Sequence record: PP434423.1
Direction: 5' to 3' (one strand)
Length of the DNA stretch: 64,000 nt
From: Escherichia phage 236Ecol005PP
Position 1 is the stretch's first letter. Each line of letters starts with the position of its first letter. The translations under genes were made by a program, and so were the position numbers. Positions 30,494-38,990 of the stretch are shown here, one piece after another. A model generated the notes under the pieces. It ran no database searches. It was not told the DNA's origin and was given only the letters and a program-made list of their open reading frames with translations.

Positions 30494-32081
<1,588 letters not shown>

Positions 32082-32109
32082 AATAAAATGGGCCCTTGCG
32101 GCCCACTCC

Positions 32110-33279
32110 TTAAAAATATTTTTTAAAACTCATCATAACTTTATCATCAACATCATTATCAATCTGTGCTACAAGGTAAGATGAAAGTTCTACTTCTTGT
32201 GGCGCGGATTGAACATTATCAGAATTAAGATATTCACGAATCCAAGGATATGGATGTTTAACCGGAGCATCAGTAATTGGGCATGGAAGACCACACTGTT
32301 TCATACGAGATACAGTTAAGTAATCAATAAAGCTCCACATGCTATTTGTATTTAATCCAGGAACATCGCCATCTTTAAATAAATGAACTGCCCAATCTTT
32401 TTCTTGGCGGTTAACTTCCATGAAAATATCAACTGCTTCTTGTTCACACTCTTGAGCAATTTTAACCCATTCATCGCCATCAGTACCGGATTGAAGTTGA
32501 CGAATAATATATTGAGTGCCTTTAAGGTGAAGCTGCTCATCACGAGCAATGAACTTCATAATCTTGGCATTACCTTCCATGATTTCCATGTTTTTGTGGA
32601 AGTTAAATGTACAGGCGAAAGATACATAAAAACGAATAGCTTCCAATGCGTTGATTACATGAAGGCAAAGATAAAGAGATTTCATTAGTGCTCGTTTAGT
32701 GCATTCAACAACTTTGCCTAGCTCTTCTTTACGAAATCCTTCTGATAAAATTCCTTCATAATCTTCAACCGCATTCTGATATTCACGAGTCTTAACTAGA
32801 ACATCATCGTAATAGCGACCAATGGACTCGGCACGTTTCATGATAGCTTTATCTAATACAATCTCATCAAACACTTTTGACGGATCAGTATAAAGATTTC
32901 GCATAATATGAGTGTATGAACGGCTGTGAATAGTTTCACTAAAAGTCCATGTAGCAACCCATGTATCAAGGCTTGGGTCTGAAATTAATGACATAAGTAC
33001 AGCAGACGGTGCACGACCCTGAATGCTATCTAGAAGTGATTGATACTTCAGGTTATTAGTAAAAATATCTTGCTGATACTGAGGAAGCTTGTTAAATTGT
33101 GCAGCATCCATCATCAAGTTTACTTCTTCCGGACGCCAGAAAAATGACAACTGCTTTTCGGTTAAATCTTCAAAAACTTTATGGCGTTGAATATCATAAC
33201 GCGCAATACCAAGACCTGAACCGAAGAACATAGGTTCTTTTAAAACATCAACTGGATTTGTATTAAAAACTGTAGACAT
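32110..33279 (-). CDS. nrdB: ribonucleotide reductase beta subunit, uninterrupted
   Basis: 389-aa continuous ORF with di-iron/tyrosyl radical motifs; no intron. Confidence 0.9.
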   Translation of the reverse strand: MSTVFNTNPVDVLKEPMFFGSGLGIARYDIQRHKVFEDLTEKQLSFFWRPEEVNLMMDAAQFNKLPQYQQDIFTNNLKYQSLLDSIQGRAPSAVLMSLISDPSLDTWVATWTFSETIHSRSYTHIMRNLYTDPSKVFDEIVLDKAIMKRAESIGRYYDDVLVKTREYQNAVEDYEGILSEGFRKEELGKVVECTKRALMKSLYLCLHVINALEAIRFYVSFACTFNFHKNMEIMEGNAKIMKFIARDEQLHLKGTQYIIRQLQSGTDGDEWVKIAQECEQEAVDIFMEVNRQEKDWAVHLFKDGDVPGLNTNSMWSFIDYLTVSRMKQCGLPCPITDAPVKHPYPWIREYLNSDNVQSAPQEVELSSYLVAQIDNDVDDKVMMSFKKYF

Positions 33280-33314
33280 ATTATTCTCGCTTATTATAGG
33301 TTTAAATTATTTAA

Positions 33315-34106
33315 TCACATATTGTGTATAAGCACTTCAGTCTGAAATGATGCACCTTTCTTTTGCTTCCTATACATGGTTTCAAAATATTCAATTTTGA
33401 AATTATTAGAAAGGGCCCAATCTTTTAAAATATAATTATTAATATCGTCTGATAGATTATTAGTGATAATAAATTTAGACTTCGATTGTTTAATTTTGTC
33501 TAATAATTCTAATTCATCCTTTTCTTCCCAGCCTGAATATTTAAATTTAGTAGAAAGATATGGCGGGTCAATGAATAAATTTTTGTTTTCAAAATCCAAA
33601 TCTCTGAATGATTTATTACTAAATGTAAATCTGTGTTGTCTATTTTTAAATTCAGAAAATTTATCCTGCTGAGACTTATTAAAAGAAGTTCTGGAATACT
33701 TGGCTCTATTGGCGAAAGCCGCGTTATAATTCCCATTACTAGAAAATCGGATTAACGAACTGAATGAAAATAAATGTAGAACATAAAGATATAGTCCGTT
33801 TTTGGTTTTATCGTATTCTTTTGACAGATTATAAAAAGGTGCTGAATCTTTGTCATTCAAATTAAAGTCTTCAATAATTTGAACTATATCATTAATTGAA
33901 GATGATTTCATCTTATTATACATATCTATAAGAGGAGTATTAATATCATTACATATAACATCTCTCTGACAATTCATAGAAAATCCAAGACCACCACAAA
34001 AAGCATCCAAAACAGGCTTATCGTCAAAGCGGTTTGAAAATTGTCTAATAAATGGCATATACTTATGTTTTGCACCTGGATATGTTATGGCAGGTAGGTC
34101 TTTCAT
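33315..34106 (-). CDS. Dam-family N6-adenine DNA methyltransferase
   Basis: motif I FCGGLG near N-terminus, motif IV DPPY around residue 181, Dam-like region LYVLH...F..IR..NG.YN. Confidence 0.7.
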   Translation of the reverse strand: MKDLPAITYPGAKHKYMPFIRQFSNRFDDKPVLDAFCGGLGFSMNCQRDVICNDINTPLIDMYNKMKSSSINDIVQIIEDFNLNDKDSAPFYNLSKEYDKTKNGLYLYVLHLFSFSSLIRFSSNGNYNAAFANRAKYSRTSFNKSQQDKFSEFKNRQHRFTFSNKSFRDLDFENKNLFIDPPYLSTKFKYSGWEEKDELELLDKIKQSKSKFIITNNLSDDINNYILKDWALSNNFKIEYFETMYRKQKKGASFQTEVLIHNM

Positions 34107-34149
34107 TTTATTTCTCGTTGTTAGTGACTCGTCCGTGAGTCAAATTATA

Positions 34150-35139
34150 TCATAATTTACAGGATGAACAATCTTCAGCTTTTGGAGTTTCTATTTCGTA
34201 ATCATCAGTACCGGAACCATCACGAGTATTATGATAATAGAAGTTTTTAATGCCATAATACCATCCATATAGCATGTCATCAATCATTATTGACATTGGA
34301 ACCTTTCCTTTTGGAAAAATCTGCGGGTCATAATATGTATTCGCTGAAGCTGATTGACATACCCATTTAAGCATAATAGCTACCTGCGTAAGATAAGGTT
34401 TATTACCTTTCTTAGCTAATTTCCACGTATAATCATATAGGTCTATGTTATGTTCAATATTGGGCACGACTTGATTAAAGGAACCCTCTTTTGATTCTTT
34501 AACAGAGACTGGTCCACGTGGAGGCTCGATACCATTAGTACTGTTAGAAACTTGGGAAGATGACTCACATGGCATAAGTGCTGATAATGTGCTATTACGG
34601 ATGCCAAAGAGCTTAAGGTCTTCCCGCAGCGCCGACCAGTCACAAACGTATTTTGGAGCTGCGATTTGGTCAATCTTTTTATTGTACCAGTCGATAGGTA
34701 ATTCGCCTCGAGACCAACGAGTGTCTGAATAATATTCGCAAGGTCCTTTTTCTTTGGCGAGCTTAATGGATGCTTTAATGAGTCCATACTGTAATCTCTC
34801 AAATAGTTCATGTGTTAAATCGTTAGCATCTTCATAAGAAGCAAAGTTACTTGCCAGCCAAGCTGCATAGTTAGTAACACCTACACCAAGATTTCGACGC
34901 TTTTTAGCTTTTTCTGCTTCAGGAACTGGATATCCTTGGTAATCCAAAAGATTATCAAGAGCACGAACTTGGACTTCTGCTAATTCATTAATTTTATCTT
35001 GGTCTTGCCAATCGAAGTTATCCAACACAAATGCGCTAAGGGTACAAAGCCCCACTTCTCCCTTGTTTTCAATAACTTCTATTGTAGTATACTCATCATC
35101 TTCGTAAAATTCATCTACAAATTCATAATCAATATTCAT
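34150..35139 (-). CDS. nrdA: ribonucleotide reductase alpha subunit, C-terminal piece
   Basis: contains LCTLSAF active-site segment and C-terminal CSSCKL tail; own ATG and RBS inside the 3' end of the HNH gene. Confidence 0.8.
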   Translation of the reverse strand: MNIDYEFVDEFYEDDEYTTIEVIENKGEVGLCTLSAFVLDNFDWQDQDKINELAEVQVRALDNLLDYQGYPVPEAEKAKKRRNLGVGVTNYAAWLASNFASYEDANDLTHELFERLQYGLIKASIKLAKEKGPCEYYSDTRWSRGELPIDWYNKKIDQIAAPKYVCDWSALREDLKLFGIRNSTLSALMPCESSSQVSNSTNGIEPPRGPVSVKESKEGSFNQVVPNIEHNIDLYDYTWKLAKKGNKPYLTQVAIMLKWVCQSASANTYYDPQIFPKGKVPMSIMIDDMLYGWYYGIKNFYYHNTRDGSGTDDYEIETPKAEDCSSCKL

Positions 35140-35974
35140 TTAATTCTTCTACCTTTTTTCTAGTAATTCCTAAAGCTTTAGATGCTCGATGTATTGATTG
35201 ATATTCTATACCGTTTATTTTTACAGCAATTAAGTTATGGGGTTTTAATCCCTTTGGATGAGGTTTACTGACGAAAACTAAATTATCAAGCTCTGAAATC
35301 TTATCCAATTTCTTACACTTAAATCCTTTGTGATGCGCCCGTTTACCTTTACAAACGGCTGACATCGCAGATGGATTTAAATTATGCTCTTTACAAAATT
35401 CGTTAAGACCTCGATGAATTTCCTCATGACCATCTGGAAATGTAAACACCCAAGACGTTTGAAGTCGAGATTTAACTTCTGGAGACATAGGAATACCTTT
35501 GTTCCAGGCCGGTTTGCCTTTATTATTTTCAGATACAGAAATAGCCAATTTTCTTCTAAGCCACCCATGTCGTTTATTGGTGTTCTTTCGTTCAATATTA
35601 TCTTCAGAATAAACACACATCATATTAGCGGCAAATATCAATTTATGATTATCTGGATATATCTTTACTAATAATTGATGAGCTATGTAATGCTCTTCTG
35701 GTGTCAAATCTACCAGGTTTTCCTTTGTATCAGAACCACCAATACACAGAGGTATAATATGATGTGATTCGGTATAGCAATCTAATTTTCTGTTCTTAGC
35801 TTTAGAAATAAGGTTATTGTAAATTTTAGAATAATCCATAACTTTTCCTCTTGTTATGGATTATTTATTAACGGTCTGTGTACTTTATTTGCTTTGAATT
35901 ATACCGCCAGGATTAGCTTCATAAAACTTAGCTACATCCGACTTCTTAATTTTAATTAAACGGGTTTGTTGACT
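35071..35974 (-). mobile_element. inserted HNH homing-endonuclease cassette splitting nrdA (approximate limits)
   Basis: limits set where NrdA similarity stops in the upstream ORF and resumes in the downstream ORF. Confidence 0.6.
35129..35839 (-). CDS. HNH homing endonuclease (Mob-like)
   Basis: N-terminal HNH motif (ESHHIIP...GGSD..EN...LTPEEH), NUMOD-like GKPAWNKG repeat, C-terminal HTH; strong GAGGA RBS. Confidence 0.8.
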   Translation of the reverse strand: MDYSKIYNNLISKAKNRKLDCYTESHHIIPLCIGGSDTKENLVDLTPEEHYIAHQLLVKIYPDNHKLIFAANMMCVYSEDNIERKNTNKRHGWLRRKLAISVSENNKGKPAWNKGIPMSPEVKSRLQTSWVFTFPDGHEEIHRGLNEFCKEHNLNPSAMSAVCKGKRAHHKGFKCKKLDKISELDNLVFVSKPHPKGLKPHNLIAVKINGIEYQSIHRASKALGITRKKVEELNEY

Positions 35975-37318
35975 ATTCACATCATTTGTTGGAATAGCAA
36001 TTTCACAACACAAGTTACTCTGACGAATAGGTGCTTTTTCACGAATAAATGGAGTATAGTTATTCGTATTATCAATGAACTGCACATAAATCCTTGCTGT
36101 TCCTGAGCGTTCAGTCATTAGCAATTCAAACAGTTCACGGGCTTTAATACGCTTTTTACGAATATTAGGGTCTTTTTCTGCGGCTTCATATAATTCACGG
36201 AAACGGTCTTGGTCTTTAAAATAAGAATAATAAAGCTCACCACCCATTTCATGTGGACTGAACAAAGTAATGTAGTCGTTCTTTCCAAAACGTTCCATCA
36301 TCAAATCATTCAGCTGGACGCCATAATCCATATGACGGATACGGTTTTCTTCTACACCTTTGTTATTTTTCAAAACGAGAAGATTTTCAACTTCCAAATG
36401 CCAAATAGGATAATAAGCAGTAGCAGCGCCGCCACGAATTCCACCCTGTGAGCATGATTTAACAGCAGTCTGAAAATGTTTCCAAAAAGGAATAACACCA
36501 GTATGGCGTACTTCACCTGTACCAATCTTAGAACCTTCGGCACGAATCATACCAACGTTAATACCAATTCCAGCGCGTTTGGAGATATATTCAACAATTG
36601 AAGCGGAAACCTTATTGATAGACTTCAGCGAATCACCTGCCTCAATAACAACACATGAACTAAACTGTCGAGTCGGAGTACGACAGCCAGCCATAATAGG
36701 AGTTGGCAATGAAATCTGTCGAGTAGATACTGCTTCATAAAAACGAATAACGTGTTTTAGTCTATCAACAGGTTCATCTTGATGCAATGCCATTCCAATA
36801 GTCATAAATGCAAACTGCGGAGTTTCATAAATTTGACCAGTGGTTTTATCTTTAACTAGATATTTTTCTTTTAATTGCATCGCCCCGGAATAAGTAAATT
36901 CCATATCCCGCTCATGCTTAATTTTTGATTCTAAAAATGTAATTTCTTCTGCTGAATATTTTGACAGCAGTTCAGGGTCATATTTACCTTCATTTACACA
37001 GTAAGAAATATGGTCAATAAATGAACGTGGTTCATATTGTCCGTAAACATGCTTACGAAGAGCAAACATTAAACAGCGTGCAGCTACATATTGATAATCA
37101 GGCTCTTCAACTGAAATAGAATTCGCAGCAGCCTTAATTACAATGGTTTGAATGTCATCAGTGGTCATTCCATCACGGAGATATGATTTAATATTTTCAT
37201 ATAATTCATAAGGATCTACAGATGTTCCTTCAGCTGCCCAAGATAAAACTTTAATAATTTTTTGCGGGTCAAAGCTCTGAGAAACACCACTACTTTTGAT
37301 AACATTAATTAATTGCAT
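35885..37318 (-). CDS. nrdA: ribonucleotide reductase alpha subunit, N-terminal piece
   Basis: ATP-cone and catalytic core up to SNLCCEIAIPTNDVN, then 29 unrelated codons and a stop. Confidence 0.8.
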   Translation of the reverse strand: MQLINVIKSSGVSQSFDPQKIIKVLSWAAEGTSVDPYELYENIKSYLRDGMTTDDIQTIVIKAAANSISVEEPDYQYVAARCLMFALRKHVYGQYEPRSFIDHISYCVNEGKYDPELLSKYSAEEITFLESKIKHERDMEFTYSGAMQLKEKYLVKDKTTGQIYETPQFAFMTIGMALHQDEPVDRLKHVIRFYEAVSTRQISLPTPIMAGCRTPTRQFSSCVVIEAGDSLKSINKVSASIVEYISKRAGIGINVGMIRAEGSKIGTGEVRHTGVIPFWKHFQTAVKSCSQGGIRGGAATAYYPIWHLEVENLLVLKNNKGVEENRIRHMDYGVQLNDLMMERFGKNDYITLFSPHEMGGELYYSYFKDQDRFRELYEAAEKDPNIRKKRIKARELFELLMTERSGTARIYVQFIDNTNNYTPFIREKAPIRQSNLCCEIAIPTNDVNSQQTRLIKIKKSDVAKFYEANPGGIIQSK

Positions 37319-37635
37319 AAGTCCTCAACTTGAAAATCGTCTTTAAACAATCGGTTAACTATATGAGCTATTATATCACCATGACACGGCTTTGGTTTAC
37401 ATGTGCATCCTAGCCTCATTCCACGTAAAGGCTCTAAATGTGCTTTAGTTATTTCTCCGGATTTAATTCGACGTATAAAATCTTTTTTGAATAATTCAAT
37501 GGCAGCCTCCCGGCTGCCAGCATCTTTACCGACGTAATTTCCCCAAAATGTACCGCGGTGAATATTAACATCAAAGTCGGATTTATATTTATTCACTACC
37601 TGGCATAGACGGCCCGCGCGGTAATAGTTCGTCAT
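37309..37635 (-). CDS. DUF4326-like small protein (T4 nrdA.1 position)
   Basis: FWGN...[13 protein letters not shown] pattern; ORF-track start may be over-extended. Confidence 0.5.
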
Positions 37636-37852
37636 ATTGTTTTTCCGTTAAAACAGTAATATCATAATAACAATCTGAAGAAGTTTTAACTGTAGAAATT
37701 TTATTATCAAAATACTCACGAGTCATTTTATGAGTATAATATTTTTTGCCATAAATGATAATAGGCTGTTCTGGTCCTGGAACTTCTAACTCGCTTGGAT
37801 TAGGAAGTGTAAAAAGAACGACACCAGAAGTATCTTTAAATCGTAAAATCAT
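37589..37852 (-). CDS. hypothetical protein (T4 nrdA.2 position)
   Basis: 87-aa ORF with GAGG RBS; overlaps the next ORF by up to 47 nt. Confidence 0.45.
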
Positions 37853-37875
37853 ATATCCTCACAATTAATAATTAA

Positions 37876-38187
37876 TTACACCGCCATTTTTCCTTTAATA
37901 GGAGGGTGTGATTCGTAACCTTTAAGAACGAAATCTTTAGGCCTGAGTTTAAGAGTGTATTCCAATTGTTCTTTAGTAGAAAGATAGCGGAATTTATAAG
38001 GCAATCCGCCTATTACCAGTTCACAAAGCTCTTTAGGTTCACGACGTAAAATTTCTTTACATTGTTCTACGTGATTCATATAGATATGAGTATTACCACC
38101 AGAAAATATCAAATCTCCTGGAATAAGATTACACATCTTAGCTACAATATGAACTAACGCAGCATATGATGCAATATTAAATGGAAG
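37876..38187 (-). CDS. td: thymidylate synthase, exon 2
   Basis: C-terminal TS sequence; the ORF-track initial Met is the intron-terminal ATG. Confidence 0.9.
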   Translation of the reverse strand, partial: LPFNIASYAALVHIVAKMCNLIPGDLIFSGGNTHIYMNHVEQCKEILRREPKELCELVIGGLPYKFRYLSTKEQLEYTLKLRPKDFVLKGYESHPPIKGKMAV

Positions 38188-38441
38188 CATTATGTTCAGA
38201 TAAGGTCGTTAATCTTATCCCGGAATTATATCCAGCTGCATGTCACCATACAGATCAGACTATATCTCCATCTTGATGAAGCAAGATGTCTATCGTTTCG
38301 AGTCACTTGACCCTACTCCCCAAAGGGATAGTCGTTAGGCATTTAGTTCAAAAGAACATTTAGCACGGGATTGTCTACTAGAGAGGTTCCCCGTTTAGAT
38401 AGATTACAAGTATAAGTCACCTTATACTCAGGCCTCAATTA
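38188..38441 (-). ncRNA. group I self-splicing intron in td, lacking any homing-endonuclease ORF
   Basis: starts TAATTGAGGCCTGAG... and ends ...CTGAACATAATG like the T4 td intron core; exon 1 ORF stops at the intron-initial TAA. Confidence 0.85.
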
Positions 38442-38990
38442 ACCCAAGAAAACATCTACACTTCTTTGGTACCATTGTAAATCAAGATAACCATTACGCA
38501 CATTAAACTGATAGAACATATGACAGGGCGGTAATGCCATTTGATTGATTTCAGCTGGATTCCATGCTGAAACGATTTGACGTCGATCAGTTGGTAATTT
38601 TTTAATACGATCAATAGTTTCAACTAATTGATCCACACCACCGAAATCACGCCATTGTTTACCGTATATAGGACCAAGTTCACCACTATGATATCCTAGG
38701 TCTTTAGCCTGGTTTTCATAGTTATCGTCCCAAATAGTTTTACCTTGAATAAGACTACCATGAGTGCGAAGACGTAAATCATTAACATTGGTAGAACCGG
38801 AAATAAACCATAGAAGCTCAGCAATGCAAGCTTTCCAAGCGAGCTTCTTAGTCGTTACTGCAGGAAAACCTTTAGTTAAATCCCAACGTAATTTAGTACC
38901 GAACAAAGCAATTGTTCCTGTGCCTGTTCGGTCATCGGTTTCATAGCCATTTTCAAAAATGTCTTTAATTAAATCTTGGTATTGTTTCAT
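38442..38990 (-). CDS. td: thymidylate synthase, exon 1
   Basis: N-terminal TS sequence including the catalytic PPCH motif. Confidence 0.9.

What the first reader, a model, noticed from the sequence alone, without database searches (positions are those of the whole stretch)
33315..34106. Dam-family adenine methyltransferase gene between nrdB and nrdA
The 263-aa ORF has the N-terminal FCGGLG motif I, a Dam-like LYVLH...IRF..NGNYN region and DPPY motif IV, so it is an alpha-class N6-adenine MTase of the Dam family. As I recall the T4 map, dam lies in a different region and the nrdB-nrdA interval holds the mobE endonuclease gene. Here the interval holds an MTase, directly beside the HNH-disrupted nrdA. 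It may be a relocated or second Dam-like enzyme, possibly with a different target, acting in anti-restriction or in protecting DNA from the neighbouring endonuclease.
Basis: partly seen in the sequence, partly recalled or inferred. Interest (0 to 1): 0.6.

Follow-up and report, generated by a model that had tools for sequence, protein, structure and literature searches.

The report
Second-lineage Dam methyltransferase between nrdA and nrdB
A T4-like phage carries, between its two ribonucleotide reductase genes, an intact DNA adenine methyltransferase gene that is a distant cousin (34% identity) of the classical T4 Dam enzyme; it is a rare but already annotated accessory gene, real and probably active, but not a new kind of system.

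Summary
Window 33315-34106 (minus strand) is a 263-aa ORF with FCGGLG (36-41), a Dam-type hairpin (115-134) and DPPY (180-183). It passes Pfam D12 MTase (84.6 bits, cut-off 22). Its best solved relative is T4 Dam (E 6e-37, 34% identity), and its AlphaFold model superposes on T4 Dam (TM 0.83).

It is not a moved copy of T4 dam. It belongs to a small separate subfamily: four 90%-identity clusters in 5.8 billion proteins, two 50%-identity clusters in 1.84 billion. Every member for which flanking DNA was read lies in the nrdA-nrdB slot, in four T4-like groups. T4 holds nrdB.1+mobE in that slot and FL34 holds nothing. Only 8 of about 970 phage records with this nrd region carry it.

dN/dS of 0.03-0.18 indicates a functional gene. 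It has no terminator and sits behind a conserved extended -10, so it is probably co-transcribed with nrdB.

T4_ev240 and ECO07P2, and by indirect evidence NR1, lack canonical dam. BGP has both genes. About two thirds of Tequatroviruses lack canonical dam anyway.

There is no link to the HNH in nrdA: every other carrier read has intact nrdA, including a contig nearly identical to the window.

Target sequence is unknown. GATC-like is most likely, but the third-base-pair Pro is Ala here. This is a new member of a known kind, of modest interest.

The parts
33315..34106 (-). CDS of the 263-aa Dam-family (D12, alpha-group) N6-adenine DNA methyltransferase. Motif I is FCGGLG at aa 36-41, the DNA-recognition hairpin is aa 115-134, a subfamily-specific insertion AKYSR lies at aa 135-139, and motif IV DPPY is at aa 180-183.
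   Evidence: dN/dS is 0.03-0.18.
33300..34119 (-). Approximate extent of the roughly 820-bp cassette that is present here and absent from phages with an empty nrdA-nrdB interval (FL34). The borders fall just after the conserved intergenic hairpin and about 15-20 nt before the nrdB start codon. No flanking repeats are seen.
   Evidence: Alignments with FL34, T4_ev240 and T4. FL34's matching stretch is 820 bp shorter than the query.
34144..34152 (-). TGATATAAT, an extended -10-like element. Its TGA is the nrdA stop codon. It is conserved in phages with an empty interval, where it lies directly upstream of nrdB. It is the likely promoter now driving MTase plus nrdB (inferred).
   Evidence: Sequence. 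[quoted passage not shown] The consensus scan did not list it, because it has no -35 hexamer.
34125..34142 (-). Short inverted repeat TGACTC-ACGGAC-GAGTCA in the leader between the promoter-like element and the MTase start. It is conserved in occupied and empty intervals. No T-run follows it, so it is not a terminator.
   Evidence: Sequence and alignment. No terminator-like site lies in 33100-34400.
32110..33279 (-). nrdB (389 aa), 35 nt downstream of the MTase stop codon. It is the downstream conserved flank of the slot.
34150..35139 (-). C-terminal fragment of nrdA (329 aa), the upstream conserved flank of the slot.
35129..35839 (-). Free-standing HNH/I-HmuI-NUMOD-type homing endonuclease ORF that splits nrdA. 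It is context only and is not functionally tied to the MTase.
   Evidence: It is absent from all other MTase carriers read and present without the MTase in FL34 and others.

Best explanation
The ORF encodes an active, stand-alone ('orphan') S-adenosylmethionine-dependent DNA N6-adenine methyltransferase of the Dam/D12 alpha group. It belongs to a small T-even-phage lineage that is paralogous to classical T4 Dam.

Expression: it lies in the same orientation as nrdA and nrdB, behind the conserved promoter-like element at the nrdA stop codon, with no terminator. It is therefore probably made early or in the middle of infection on the nrdB message (inferred).

Mechanism: by analogy with T4 Dam and EcoDam it flips out and methylates the adenine of a short site. 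GATC or a GATC-like site is most likely, because the intercalating aromatic residue (F115), L118 and the Arg that reads the fourth base pair (R120) are kept. The biological role would be that proposed for phage orphan MTases: marking phage DNA so that host or prophage restriction-type defences that cut unmethylated sites are blunted (inferred, not shown).

Genomic status: it is one of several alternative occupants of the nrdA-nrdB slot, the others being mobE+nrdB.1, another endonuclease gene, or nothing. It is inherited and exchanged by homologous recombination through the conserved nrd flanks, probably helped by gene conversion started by neighbouring homing endonucleases. It is independent of the HNH gene that splits nrdA here.
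For: Family and fold: Pfam PF02086 at 84.6 bits against a cut-off of 22. T4 Dam structures are the best PDB sequence hits at E 6e-37, with 34% identity by BLASTP. The AlphaFold model has pLDDT 87.7 and pTM 0.87 and superposes on T4 Dam at TM 0.82-0.83, EcoDam at 0.74 and DpnM at 0.72.

Catalytic motifs: G38 and D180-P-P-Y183 match near-invariant columns in 163 aligned sequences (the window protein, its relatives, T4 Dam and EcoDam).

Functional constraint: dN/dS is 0.03 within the clade and 0.12-0.18 between clades, with dS up to 1.3.

DNA-contact residues: EcoDam Y119, L122 and R124 correspond to F115, L118 and R120. Their roles are described in PMC4417163 and PMC10073500.

Expression context: no terminator-like site in the region. 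TGATATAAT and the leader hairpin are conserved with the empty-site phage FL34. The nrdB middle promoter location in mobE-less phages comes from PMC2790892.

Slot behaviour: every member with readable flanks lies between nrdA and nrdB, in Tequatrovirus, Gelderlandvirus, Marfavirus and fDHCT2. BGP has Tequatrovirus nrdA (99% aa) but a clade-B MTase (80% aa) next to an intron-plus-endonuclease nrdB, which indicates exchange between lineages.

Independence from the HNH: (L024).
Against: No activity or methylome data exist for any member in the literature I could search. PMC13390438 analysed NR1 and BGP DNA, and its text has no mention of adenine methylation.

The protein scores below the curated cut-off of the NCBIfam 'dam' subfamily model (93.6 against 114.85). 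It is far below the EcoDam equivalog (35.6 against 441).

The proline that contacts the third base pair (EcoDam P134, T4 P126) is Ala here. A 5-6-residue insertion found in almost no relative (157 of 163 aligned sequences have a gap) follows the hairpin. GATC specificity is therefore not assured.

The anti-restriction role is inferred. T-even DNA is already protected by glucosyl-hydroxymethylcytosine, and about two thirds of Tequatroviruses do without any Dam.

The promoter assignment rests on sequence and conservation only.
Confidence: 0.8

Rival explanations
1. Same enzyme class, but with a target that is not plain GATC. It could be a naturally relaxed, 'Damh-like' enzyme that methylates GATC plus related sites, or one with a new site. 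Specificity may also be diversifying between allelic clades, giving wider protection against restriction-type defences.
For: The third-base-pair proline (EcoDam P134, T4 P126) is replaced by Ala130, and by Ser or Ala in the other subfamily clusters. A subfamily-specific insertion AKYSR follows the hairpin and is disordered in the model.

Between clade A (this window) and clade B (BGP, CF-SP2, fDHCT2), substitutions are concentrated in the hairpin (45-50% of residues, Fisher p 0.002-0.007). They are also concentrated in the N-terminal 31 residues (39-42%, p 0.005-0.01). These are the two DNA-reading elements of Dam enzymes, and the changes include R120K at the fourth-base-pair contact.

From memory only: Miner, Schlagman and Hattman 1989 (NAR 17:8149) reported that T4 damh is P126S with relaxed specificity, and that Ala, Cys or Gly at 126 behave alike. 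That paper is not held in the library.

The score lies below the NCBIfam dam cut-off.
Against: Among the 163 aligned sequences the Pro column is not invariant (P 82, S 30, A 21, T 17), so Ala alone is weak evidence. F115, L118 and R120 match GATC-reading enzymes. The regions tested for enrichment were chosen after looking at the alignment. No experimental data exist.
Confidence: 0.3
2. The MTase is functionally paired with the adjacent HNH endonuclease, or with another phage nuclease. On this view it protects the phage's own DNA from that nuclease, like a restriction-modification or homing-immunity pair.
For: Physical proximity in this window: the MTase lies about 1 kb from the HNH ORF. The slot is a known homing-endonuclease hot spot (PMC2790892).
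Against: All other carriers whose nrdA could be read (more than 20) have intact nrdA without the HNH. At least about 20 listed phage records carry the HNH-split nrdA without the MTase (e.g. FL34). Contig L024 is 100% identical to the window in denA, the 5' half of nrdB, the MTase and nrdA.2 but has no HNH, so the HNH arrived later on an MTase-bearing background. Neighbouring endonucleases vary freely among carriers: I-TevI in td, HNH_3 in the nrdB intron, or none.
Confidence: 0.03
3. The ORF is a decaying or inactive remnant, or a chance ORF, with no present function.
For: It is rare (8 phage records) and dispensable, since most relatives lack it.
Against: It is full length in every copy. The catalytic and cofactor motifs are intact. 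There is strong purifying selection across dS up to 1.3. The exact protein is present on 20 independent metagenome contigs.
Confidence: 0.03

Closest known systems
Bacteriophage T4 Dam (M.EcoT4Dam; PDB 1Q0S, 1YF3, 1YFJ, 1YFL)
   Same: It is the best sequence and structure match (E 6e-37, 34% identity, TM 0.83). Length is similar (263 against 259 aa). It has the same alpha-group order, motif I then hairpin then DPPY. The hairpin core is similar: F-S-x-[LM]-I-R...G-N-[YF]...F-x-x-R. Both are orphan MTases of a T-even phage transcribed with early or middle genes.
   Different: Only 34% identical. It sits at a different locus (nrdA-nrdB, not 56-dam-61). Pro126 is Ala and Gly128 is Ala. There is a 5-6-aa insertion after the hairpin. 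The target site is untested. It can coexist with canonical Dam (BGP), so it is a paralogue, not an allele.
E. coli Dam (EcoDam; PDB 2G1P) and DpnM (2DPM)
   Same: Same fold (TM 0.72-0.76). The EcoDam contact residues Y119, L122 and R124 have counterparts F115, L118 and R120 (PMC10073500).
   Different: Very distant: phmmer E about 1e-5 and 16-18% identity in the structural alignment. The NCBIfam EcoDam equivalog scores 35.6 against 441. There is no Lys at the EcoDam K9 position, and P134 is not conserved.
T4 mobE / nrdB.1 cassette (occupant of the same slot in T4)
   Same: Same insertion slot between nrdA and nrdB and same orientation. Like mobE it is embedded in the nrd transcription unit without a terminator (PMC2790892).
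   Different: No nuclease domain; the only Pfam hit is D12 MTase. It therefore cannot promote its own homing and can only spread by recombination or by hitch-hiking on neighbouring endonucleases.

Membership tests
D12-class / Dam-family alpha-group N6-adenine DNA MTases (Pfam PF02086) | Profile match above the curated Pfam threshold over the whole domain | tested here: met
   84.6 bits against a cut-off of 22; residues 9-245 match profile positions 1-251 of 253.
D12-class / Dam-family alpha-group N6-adenine DNA MTases (Pfam PF02086) | AdoMet-binding motif I (FxGxG) N-terminal to catalytic motif IV (DPPY), with the target-recognition hairpin between them | tested here: met
   F36-C-G-G-L-G41, hairpin 115-134 and D180-P-P-Y183. 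G38, D180, P182 and Y183 match the dominant residue in at least 161 of 163 aligned sequences, and P181 in 156.
D12-class / Dam-family alpha-group N6-adenine DNA MTases (Pfam PF02086) | Dam fold (Rossmann-type catalytic domain plus helical DNA-binding domain with a beta-hairpin) | tested here: met
   AlphaFold pLDDT 87.7. Foldseek gives T4 Dam TM 0.82-0.83, EcoDam 0.74 and DpnM 0.72.
NCBIfam TIGR00571 'dam' subfamily / NF008152 EcoDam equivalog | Score above the curated cut-off | tested here: not met
   TIGR00571 scores 93.6 bits against 114.85. NF008152 scores 35.6 against 441.
GATC-specific Dam enzymes (T4 Dam, EcoDam, DpnM) | Conserved DNA-reading residues: intercalating aromatic, Leu/Met and Pro on the third base pair, Arg on the fourth base pair | tested here: inconclusive
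   F115, L118 and R120 are present. The Pro position is Ala130, and an extra insertion follows the hairpin. Residue roles come from PMC4417163 and PMC10073500.
GATC-specific Dam enzymes (T4 Dam, EcoDam, DpnM) | Methylation of the adenine in GATC | not testable with these tools
   This needs a methylome or a digestion assay. No data were found in the literature.
Orthologue of T4 dam (gene between 56 and 61) | High identity to T4 Dam and the conserved 56-dam-61 position | tested here: not met
   34% identity. Canonical Dam proteins of Tequatroviruses are at least 90% identical to T4 Dam (182 records). The locus here is nrdA-nrdB. BGP carries both genes.
Restriction-modification or endonuclease-immunity pair with the adjacent HNH | Consistent co-occurrence of the MTase with the nuclease gene | tested here: not met
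   No other carrier read has the HNH. The HNH is common without the MTase.
Free-standing homing endonuclease cassette (mobE-like) | Encodes a nuclease (HNH, GIY-YIG and the like) | tested here: not met
   The D12 MTase domain is the only hit, and it covers residues 9-245.

The most novel reading that the evidence does not exclude
The nrdA-nrdB MTase lineage may not be a plain GATC Dam. It may be a naturally relaxed or re-targeted adenine MTase whose DNA-reading hairpin and N-terminal loop are diversifying between allelic clades: clade A has R120/A130, clade B has K120/S130. On this reading it is a swappable anti-defence 'specificity cassette' that spreads among T-even genera by hitch-hiking on homing-endonuclease-driven gene conversion at the nrd locus.
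Probability: 0.2. Interest if true: 0.5.

Novelty: new member of a known kind. Interest (0 to 1): 0.28.

Why it matters
If active, this enzyme shows that T-even phages draw on at least two separate Dam-family lineages, at two different loci, for adenine methylation. Phages scored as 'dam-less' from the classical 56-61 locus (for example NR1, ECO07P2, T4_ev240) may still methylate adenine. That affects how phage sensitivity to restriction-modification, BREX-type and methyl-dependent defences is predicted. It also adds a non-nuclease cargo gene to a textbook homing-endonuclease hot spot. It is a useful annotation point and a cheap experiment, not a new biological principle.

Tried and rejected
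1. I looked for a second dam copy in the window by tblastn with T4 Dam. Only the ORF itself was hit. The canonical 56-dam-61 locus lies outside the 64 kb, so the window's own dam status cannot be settled.

2. I tested 'functional replacement of canonical dam'. Carriers T4_ev240 and ECO07P2 have no dam at the 56-61 locus. NR1, EP02SG, CF-SP2 and fDHCT2 show a single tblastn place, and NR1 is reported to lack it. But only about 182 of about 510 Tequatrovirus-level records have canonical Dam, and BGP has both genes. Absence in carriers is therefore not significant, and I rejected it as evidence.

3. I tried to identify the source genome. No phage record and no metagenome contig combines the MTase with the HNH-split nrdA. 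The closest is contig L024, which lacks the HNH.

4. I tried to verify from the literature my recollection that T4 damh is P126S and that Ala126 is Damh-like. The primary papers (NAR 1989; Cell 2005; NSB 2003; JMB 2006) are not held. Searches found only secondary descriptions of the EcoDam contacts. The claim stays marked as memory.

5. I tested whether the Pro-to-Ala change is unique. It is not: Ser, Ala and Thr are common among relatives.

6. The sigma-70 and terminator scan gave only generic AT-rich promoter-like hits and no terminator.

7. I looked for methylation data on carrier phages. The Durham-collection paper reports cytosine modifications, and its text has no mention of adenine methylation.

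8. GATC is depleted in the window (69 observed, 212 expected). Other palindromes are depleted too, and I did not compare carriers with non-carriers, so this gives no information on specificity.

Full report
**Observation**

The window is a Tequatrovirus (T4-like) segment. Megablast of 32000-37400 finds 973 phage records, the best at 93-98% identity. At 33315..34106 on the minus strand there is a 263-aa ATG-initiated ORF. It is co-oriented with nrdB (32110..33279) and with nrdA. nrdA is in two pieces, 34150..35139 and 35885..37318, separated by a 236-aa I-HmuI/NUMOD-type endonuclease ORF at 35129..35839. T4 dam lies between genes 56 and 61, and the T4 nrdA-nrdB interval holds mobE and nrdB.1.

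**What the protein is**

- Pfam D12-class N6-adenine MTase matches over the whole domain, 84.6 bits against a cut-off of 22. PHROG 56 'DNA methyltransferase' gives E 1e-35.
- The best solved relatives are the T4 Dam structures (E 6e-37). BLASTP identity to T4 Dam is 34%.
- An AlphaFold model built on 21 sequences has pLDDT 87.7 and pTM 0.87. It superposes on T4 Dam at TM 0.82-0.83, on EcoDam at about 0.74 and on DpnM at 0.72.
- The protein falls below the curated cut-off of the NCBIfam 'dam' subfamily (93.6 against 114.85). It is far below the EcoDam equivalog.

It is therefore a Dam-family enzyme, but an outlying one.

**A small, separate lineage tied to one slot**

- A word-indexed search of 5.8 billion proteins finds only four 90%-identity clusters at 75-99% identity. 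The next hits drop to 33%.
- An exhaustive HMMER pass over 1.84 billion 50%-identity representatives finds a single other cluster (P0003). The next best is 34% identical, E 2e-28.
- In the phage collection only eight records carry it. T4_ev240, EP02SG, ECO07P2 and vB_Eco_NR1 are at least 99% identical. vB_Eco_BGP, CF-SP2, fDHCT2 and PhiKpNIH-6 are 75-80% identical.
- Every copy for which I read flanking DNA lies between nrdA and nrdB in the same orientation. That covers six of the eight records and the metagenome contigs. The carriers span Tequatrovirus, Gelderlandvirus (CF-SP2), Marfavirus (PhiKpNIH-6) and the unclassified fDHCT2.
- The same slot holds nrdB.1+mobE in T4. It holds nothing in FL34, and another endonuclease gene in some records.

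**Cassette borders**

Alignment with the empty site of FL34 places the roughly 820-bp cassette precisely. It starts just after a conserved leader hairpin, TGACTC-ACGGAC-GAGTCA at 34125-34142. It ends about 15-20 nt before the nrdB start codon. No flanking repeats are seen.

**Is it functional?**

All copies are full length with intact cofactor and catalytic motifs. Nei-Gojobori dN/dS is 0.03 within the window's clade. It is 0.12-0.18 between clades, at dS up to 1.3. This is the signature of a protein under purifying selection, not of a remnant.

**Expression (inferred)**

No terminator-like site lies in 33100-34400. Immediately upstream, overlapping the nrdA stop codon, is TGATATAAT (34144-34152), an extended -10 element. 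It is conserved in the empty-site phage, where it directly precedes nrdB. [quoted passage not shown] The MTase thus appears to be inserted between that promoter and nrdB, and would be co-transcribed with nrdB.

In some alleles an ATG four codons upstream gives a 267-aa call (P0001). In the window that codon is ACG, so the 263-aa start is the common one.

**Relation to canonical dam**

- The window does not reach the 56-dam-61 locus. tblastn with T4 Dam hits only this ORF.
- T4_ev240 and ECO07P2 have nothing but a short opposite-strand ORF between genes 56 and 61.
- NR1 is reported to lack the T4-like Dam gene (PMC13390438).
- EP02SG, CF-SP2 and fDHCT2 show only one Dam-like place each.
- BGP has both canonical dam and this gene.

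Canonical Dam (at least 90% identity to T4 Dam) occurs in only 182 records. About 510 records match the nrd region at Tequatrovirus level. Lacking canonical dam is therefore the majority state and is no evidence of 'replacement'. The two genes are paralogues that can occur singly, together or not at all.

**Relation to the neighbouring HNH**

The data argue against this.

- All other carriers whose nrdA could be read have an uninterrupted 751-754-aa nrdA.
- The HNH-split nrdA is common without the MTase, for example in FL34, FL33, SH-2 and fPS-90.
- Contig L024 (ERR1300954) is 100% identical to the window in denA, the 5' half of nrdB, the MTase and nrdA.2, but has no HNH.

The HNH therefore entered nrdA recently on an MTase-bearing background. 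The two elements are independent.

**How it spreads (inferred)**

In CF-SP2 and fDHCT2 the MTase is about as diverged from the window's (78-79% aa) as the flanking nrdA, nrdB and denA (75-88%). This fits long residence with many losses. BGP, however, has a Tequatrovirus nrdA (99% aa) joined to a clade-B MTase (80% aa; dN 0.03 to CF-SP2) and a divergent, intron-containing nrdB. That indicates exchange between lineages through the conserved flanks. The slot is surrounded by homing endonucleases (in nrdA, in the nrdB intron, in the td intron). Hitch-hiking on their gene-conversion tracts is therefore plausible. 'Trans homing' driven by mobE has been shown for I-TevIII (PMC2790892).

**Target specificity**

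In EcoDam, Y119 intercalates, L122 and P134 contact the third base pair, R124 reads the fourth, and K9 reads the first (PMC4417163 and PMC10073500). In this protein the counterparts are:

- F115, L118 and R120, all conserved in character;
- Ala130 in place of the Pro;
- Ala132 in place of the following, usually conserved Gly;
- a 5-6-residue insertion (AKYSR) that 157 of 163 aligned sequences lack, which follows the hairpin and is disordered in the model.

The Pro column is not invariant among the aligned sequences (P 82, S 30, A 21, T 17). The change by itself is therefore weak evidence.

I recall that the T4 hypermethylating mutant damh is P126S, and that Ala at 126 gives the same relaxed behaviour (Miner, Schlagman and Hattman 1989). 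I could not retrieve that paper, so this is memory only.

A further hint comes from comparing clades. Between clade A (window) and clade B (BGP, CF-SP2, fDHCT2), substitutions are enriched in the hairpin (45-50% of residues, Fisher p 0.002-0.007). They are also enriched in the N-terminal 31 residues (39-42%, p 0.005-0.01), and they include R120K. The C-terminal 84 residues differ at only about 10%. The regions were chosen after inspection, so this is suggestive only.

My estimate is that GATC or a GATC-like site is the most likely target. There is about a 30% chance of relaxed or different specificity.

**Comparison with what is known, and verdict**

The gene is already annotated by homology as 'DNA adenine methylase' or 'putative methylase' in ECO07P2, CF-SP2, fDHCT2 and NR1, and as 'similar to DNA adenine methyltransferase' in PhiKpNIH-6. 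I found no paper that characterises it or remarks on its locus.

It works like T4 Dam but is not its orthologue. It is a new member, a divergent phage-restricted subfamily, of a well-known kind. The points of interest are modest:

- a second Dam lineage in T-even phages;
- a fixed accessory slot shared with homing endonucleases;
- a possible specificity difference.

I score interest at 0.28.

Noticed in passing
window 38236-38451 (-), between td exons 38439..38990 and 37876..38190: The thymidylate synthase gene is interrupted by a short group I intron (Rfam RF00028, 72.7 bits, E 1.6e-16). It has no endonuclease ORF, unlike the T4 td intron, which carries I-TevI. Relatives show all three states: no intron, intron with I-TevI, and intron without an ORF.
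   Followed up: partly
window 34150-37318 (-); compare locus L024 1041-3305: nrdA is a 'gene in pieces', with 477-aa and 329-aa fragments split by a free-standing HNH/I-HmuI-NUMOD endonuclease at 35129-35839. The endonuclease ORF overlaps the start of the C-terminal fragment by 11 nt. A nearly identical contig (ERR1300954) has intact nrdA, so the insertion is recent. The arrangement resembles the split nrdA of Aeromonas phage Aeh1 (PMC3045599, seen by title and abstract only).
   Followed up: partly
window 33277-33279 region (nrdB codon 2); alignment A1: nrdB codon 2 is TCT (Ser) in the MTase-carrying haplotypes (window, T4_ev240). It is AGC or AGT (Ser) in FL34 and T4. This synonymous change needs multiple substitutions and marks the edge of the cassette-linked haplotype. 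The MobE nick and recombination region lies in the 5' part of nrdB (PMC2790892).
   Followed up: no
whole window: GATC is strongly under-represented, 69 observed against about 212 expected from base composition. It is more depleted than the other 4-bp palindromes tested: CTAG 81, TCGA 124, GTAC 138, CATG 157. Only two GATC sites occur in 31000-38000, at about 32883 and 37213.
   Followed up: no
L004 3196-3321 (T4_ev240) and L015 7259-7459 (ECO07P2): In phages lacking canonical dam, the 56-61 interval holds only a small ORF (41-66 aa) on the opposite strand, where T4 has dam.
   Followed up: no
L016 6404-6964 (vB_Eco_BGP): Directly upstream of canonical dam, BGP has an extra 186-aa ORF. PMC13390438 calls it a 'restriction enzyme-like gene' found only in Geo, EL and BGP. 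This may be a nuclease-MTase pairing at the classical dam locus.
   Followed up: no
window 34107-34118 (-): Some alleles (P0001, P0003) have an in-frame ATG four codons upstream of the MTase start, giving 267-aa gene calls. In the window that codon is ACG, so only the 263-aa start is available.
   Followed up: yes
window 37309-37635 (-): nrdA.1 is a DUF4326 protein (Pfam 77.5 bits). Its gene is present in some carriers and absent in others (L009, L011, L021, L023), which shows further mosaicism just upstream of nrdA.
   Followed up: no
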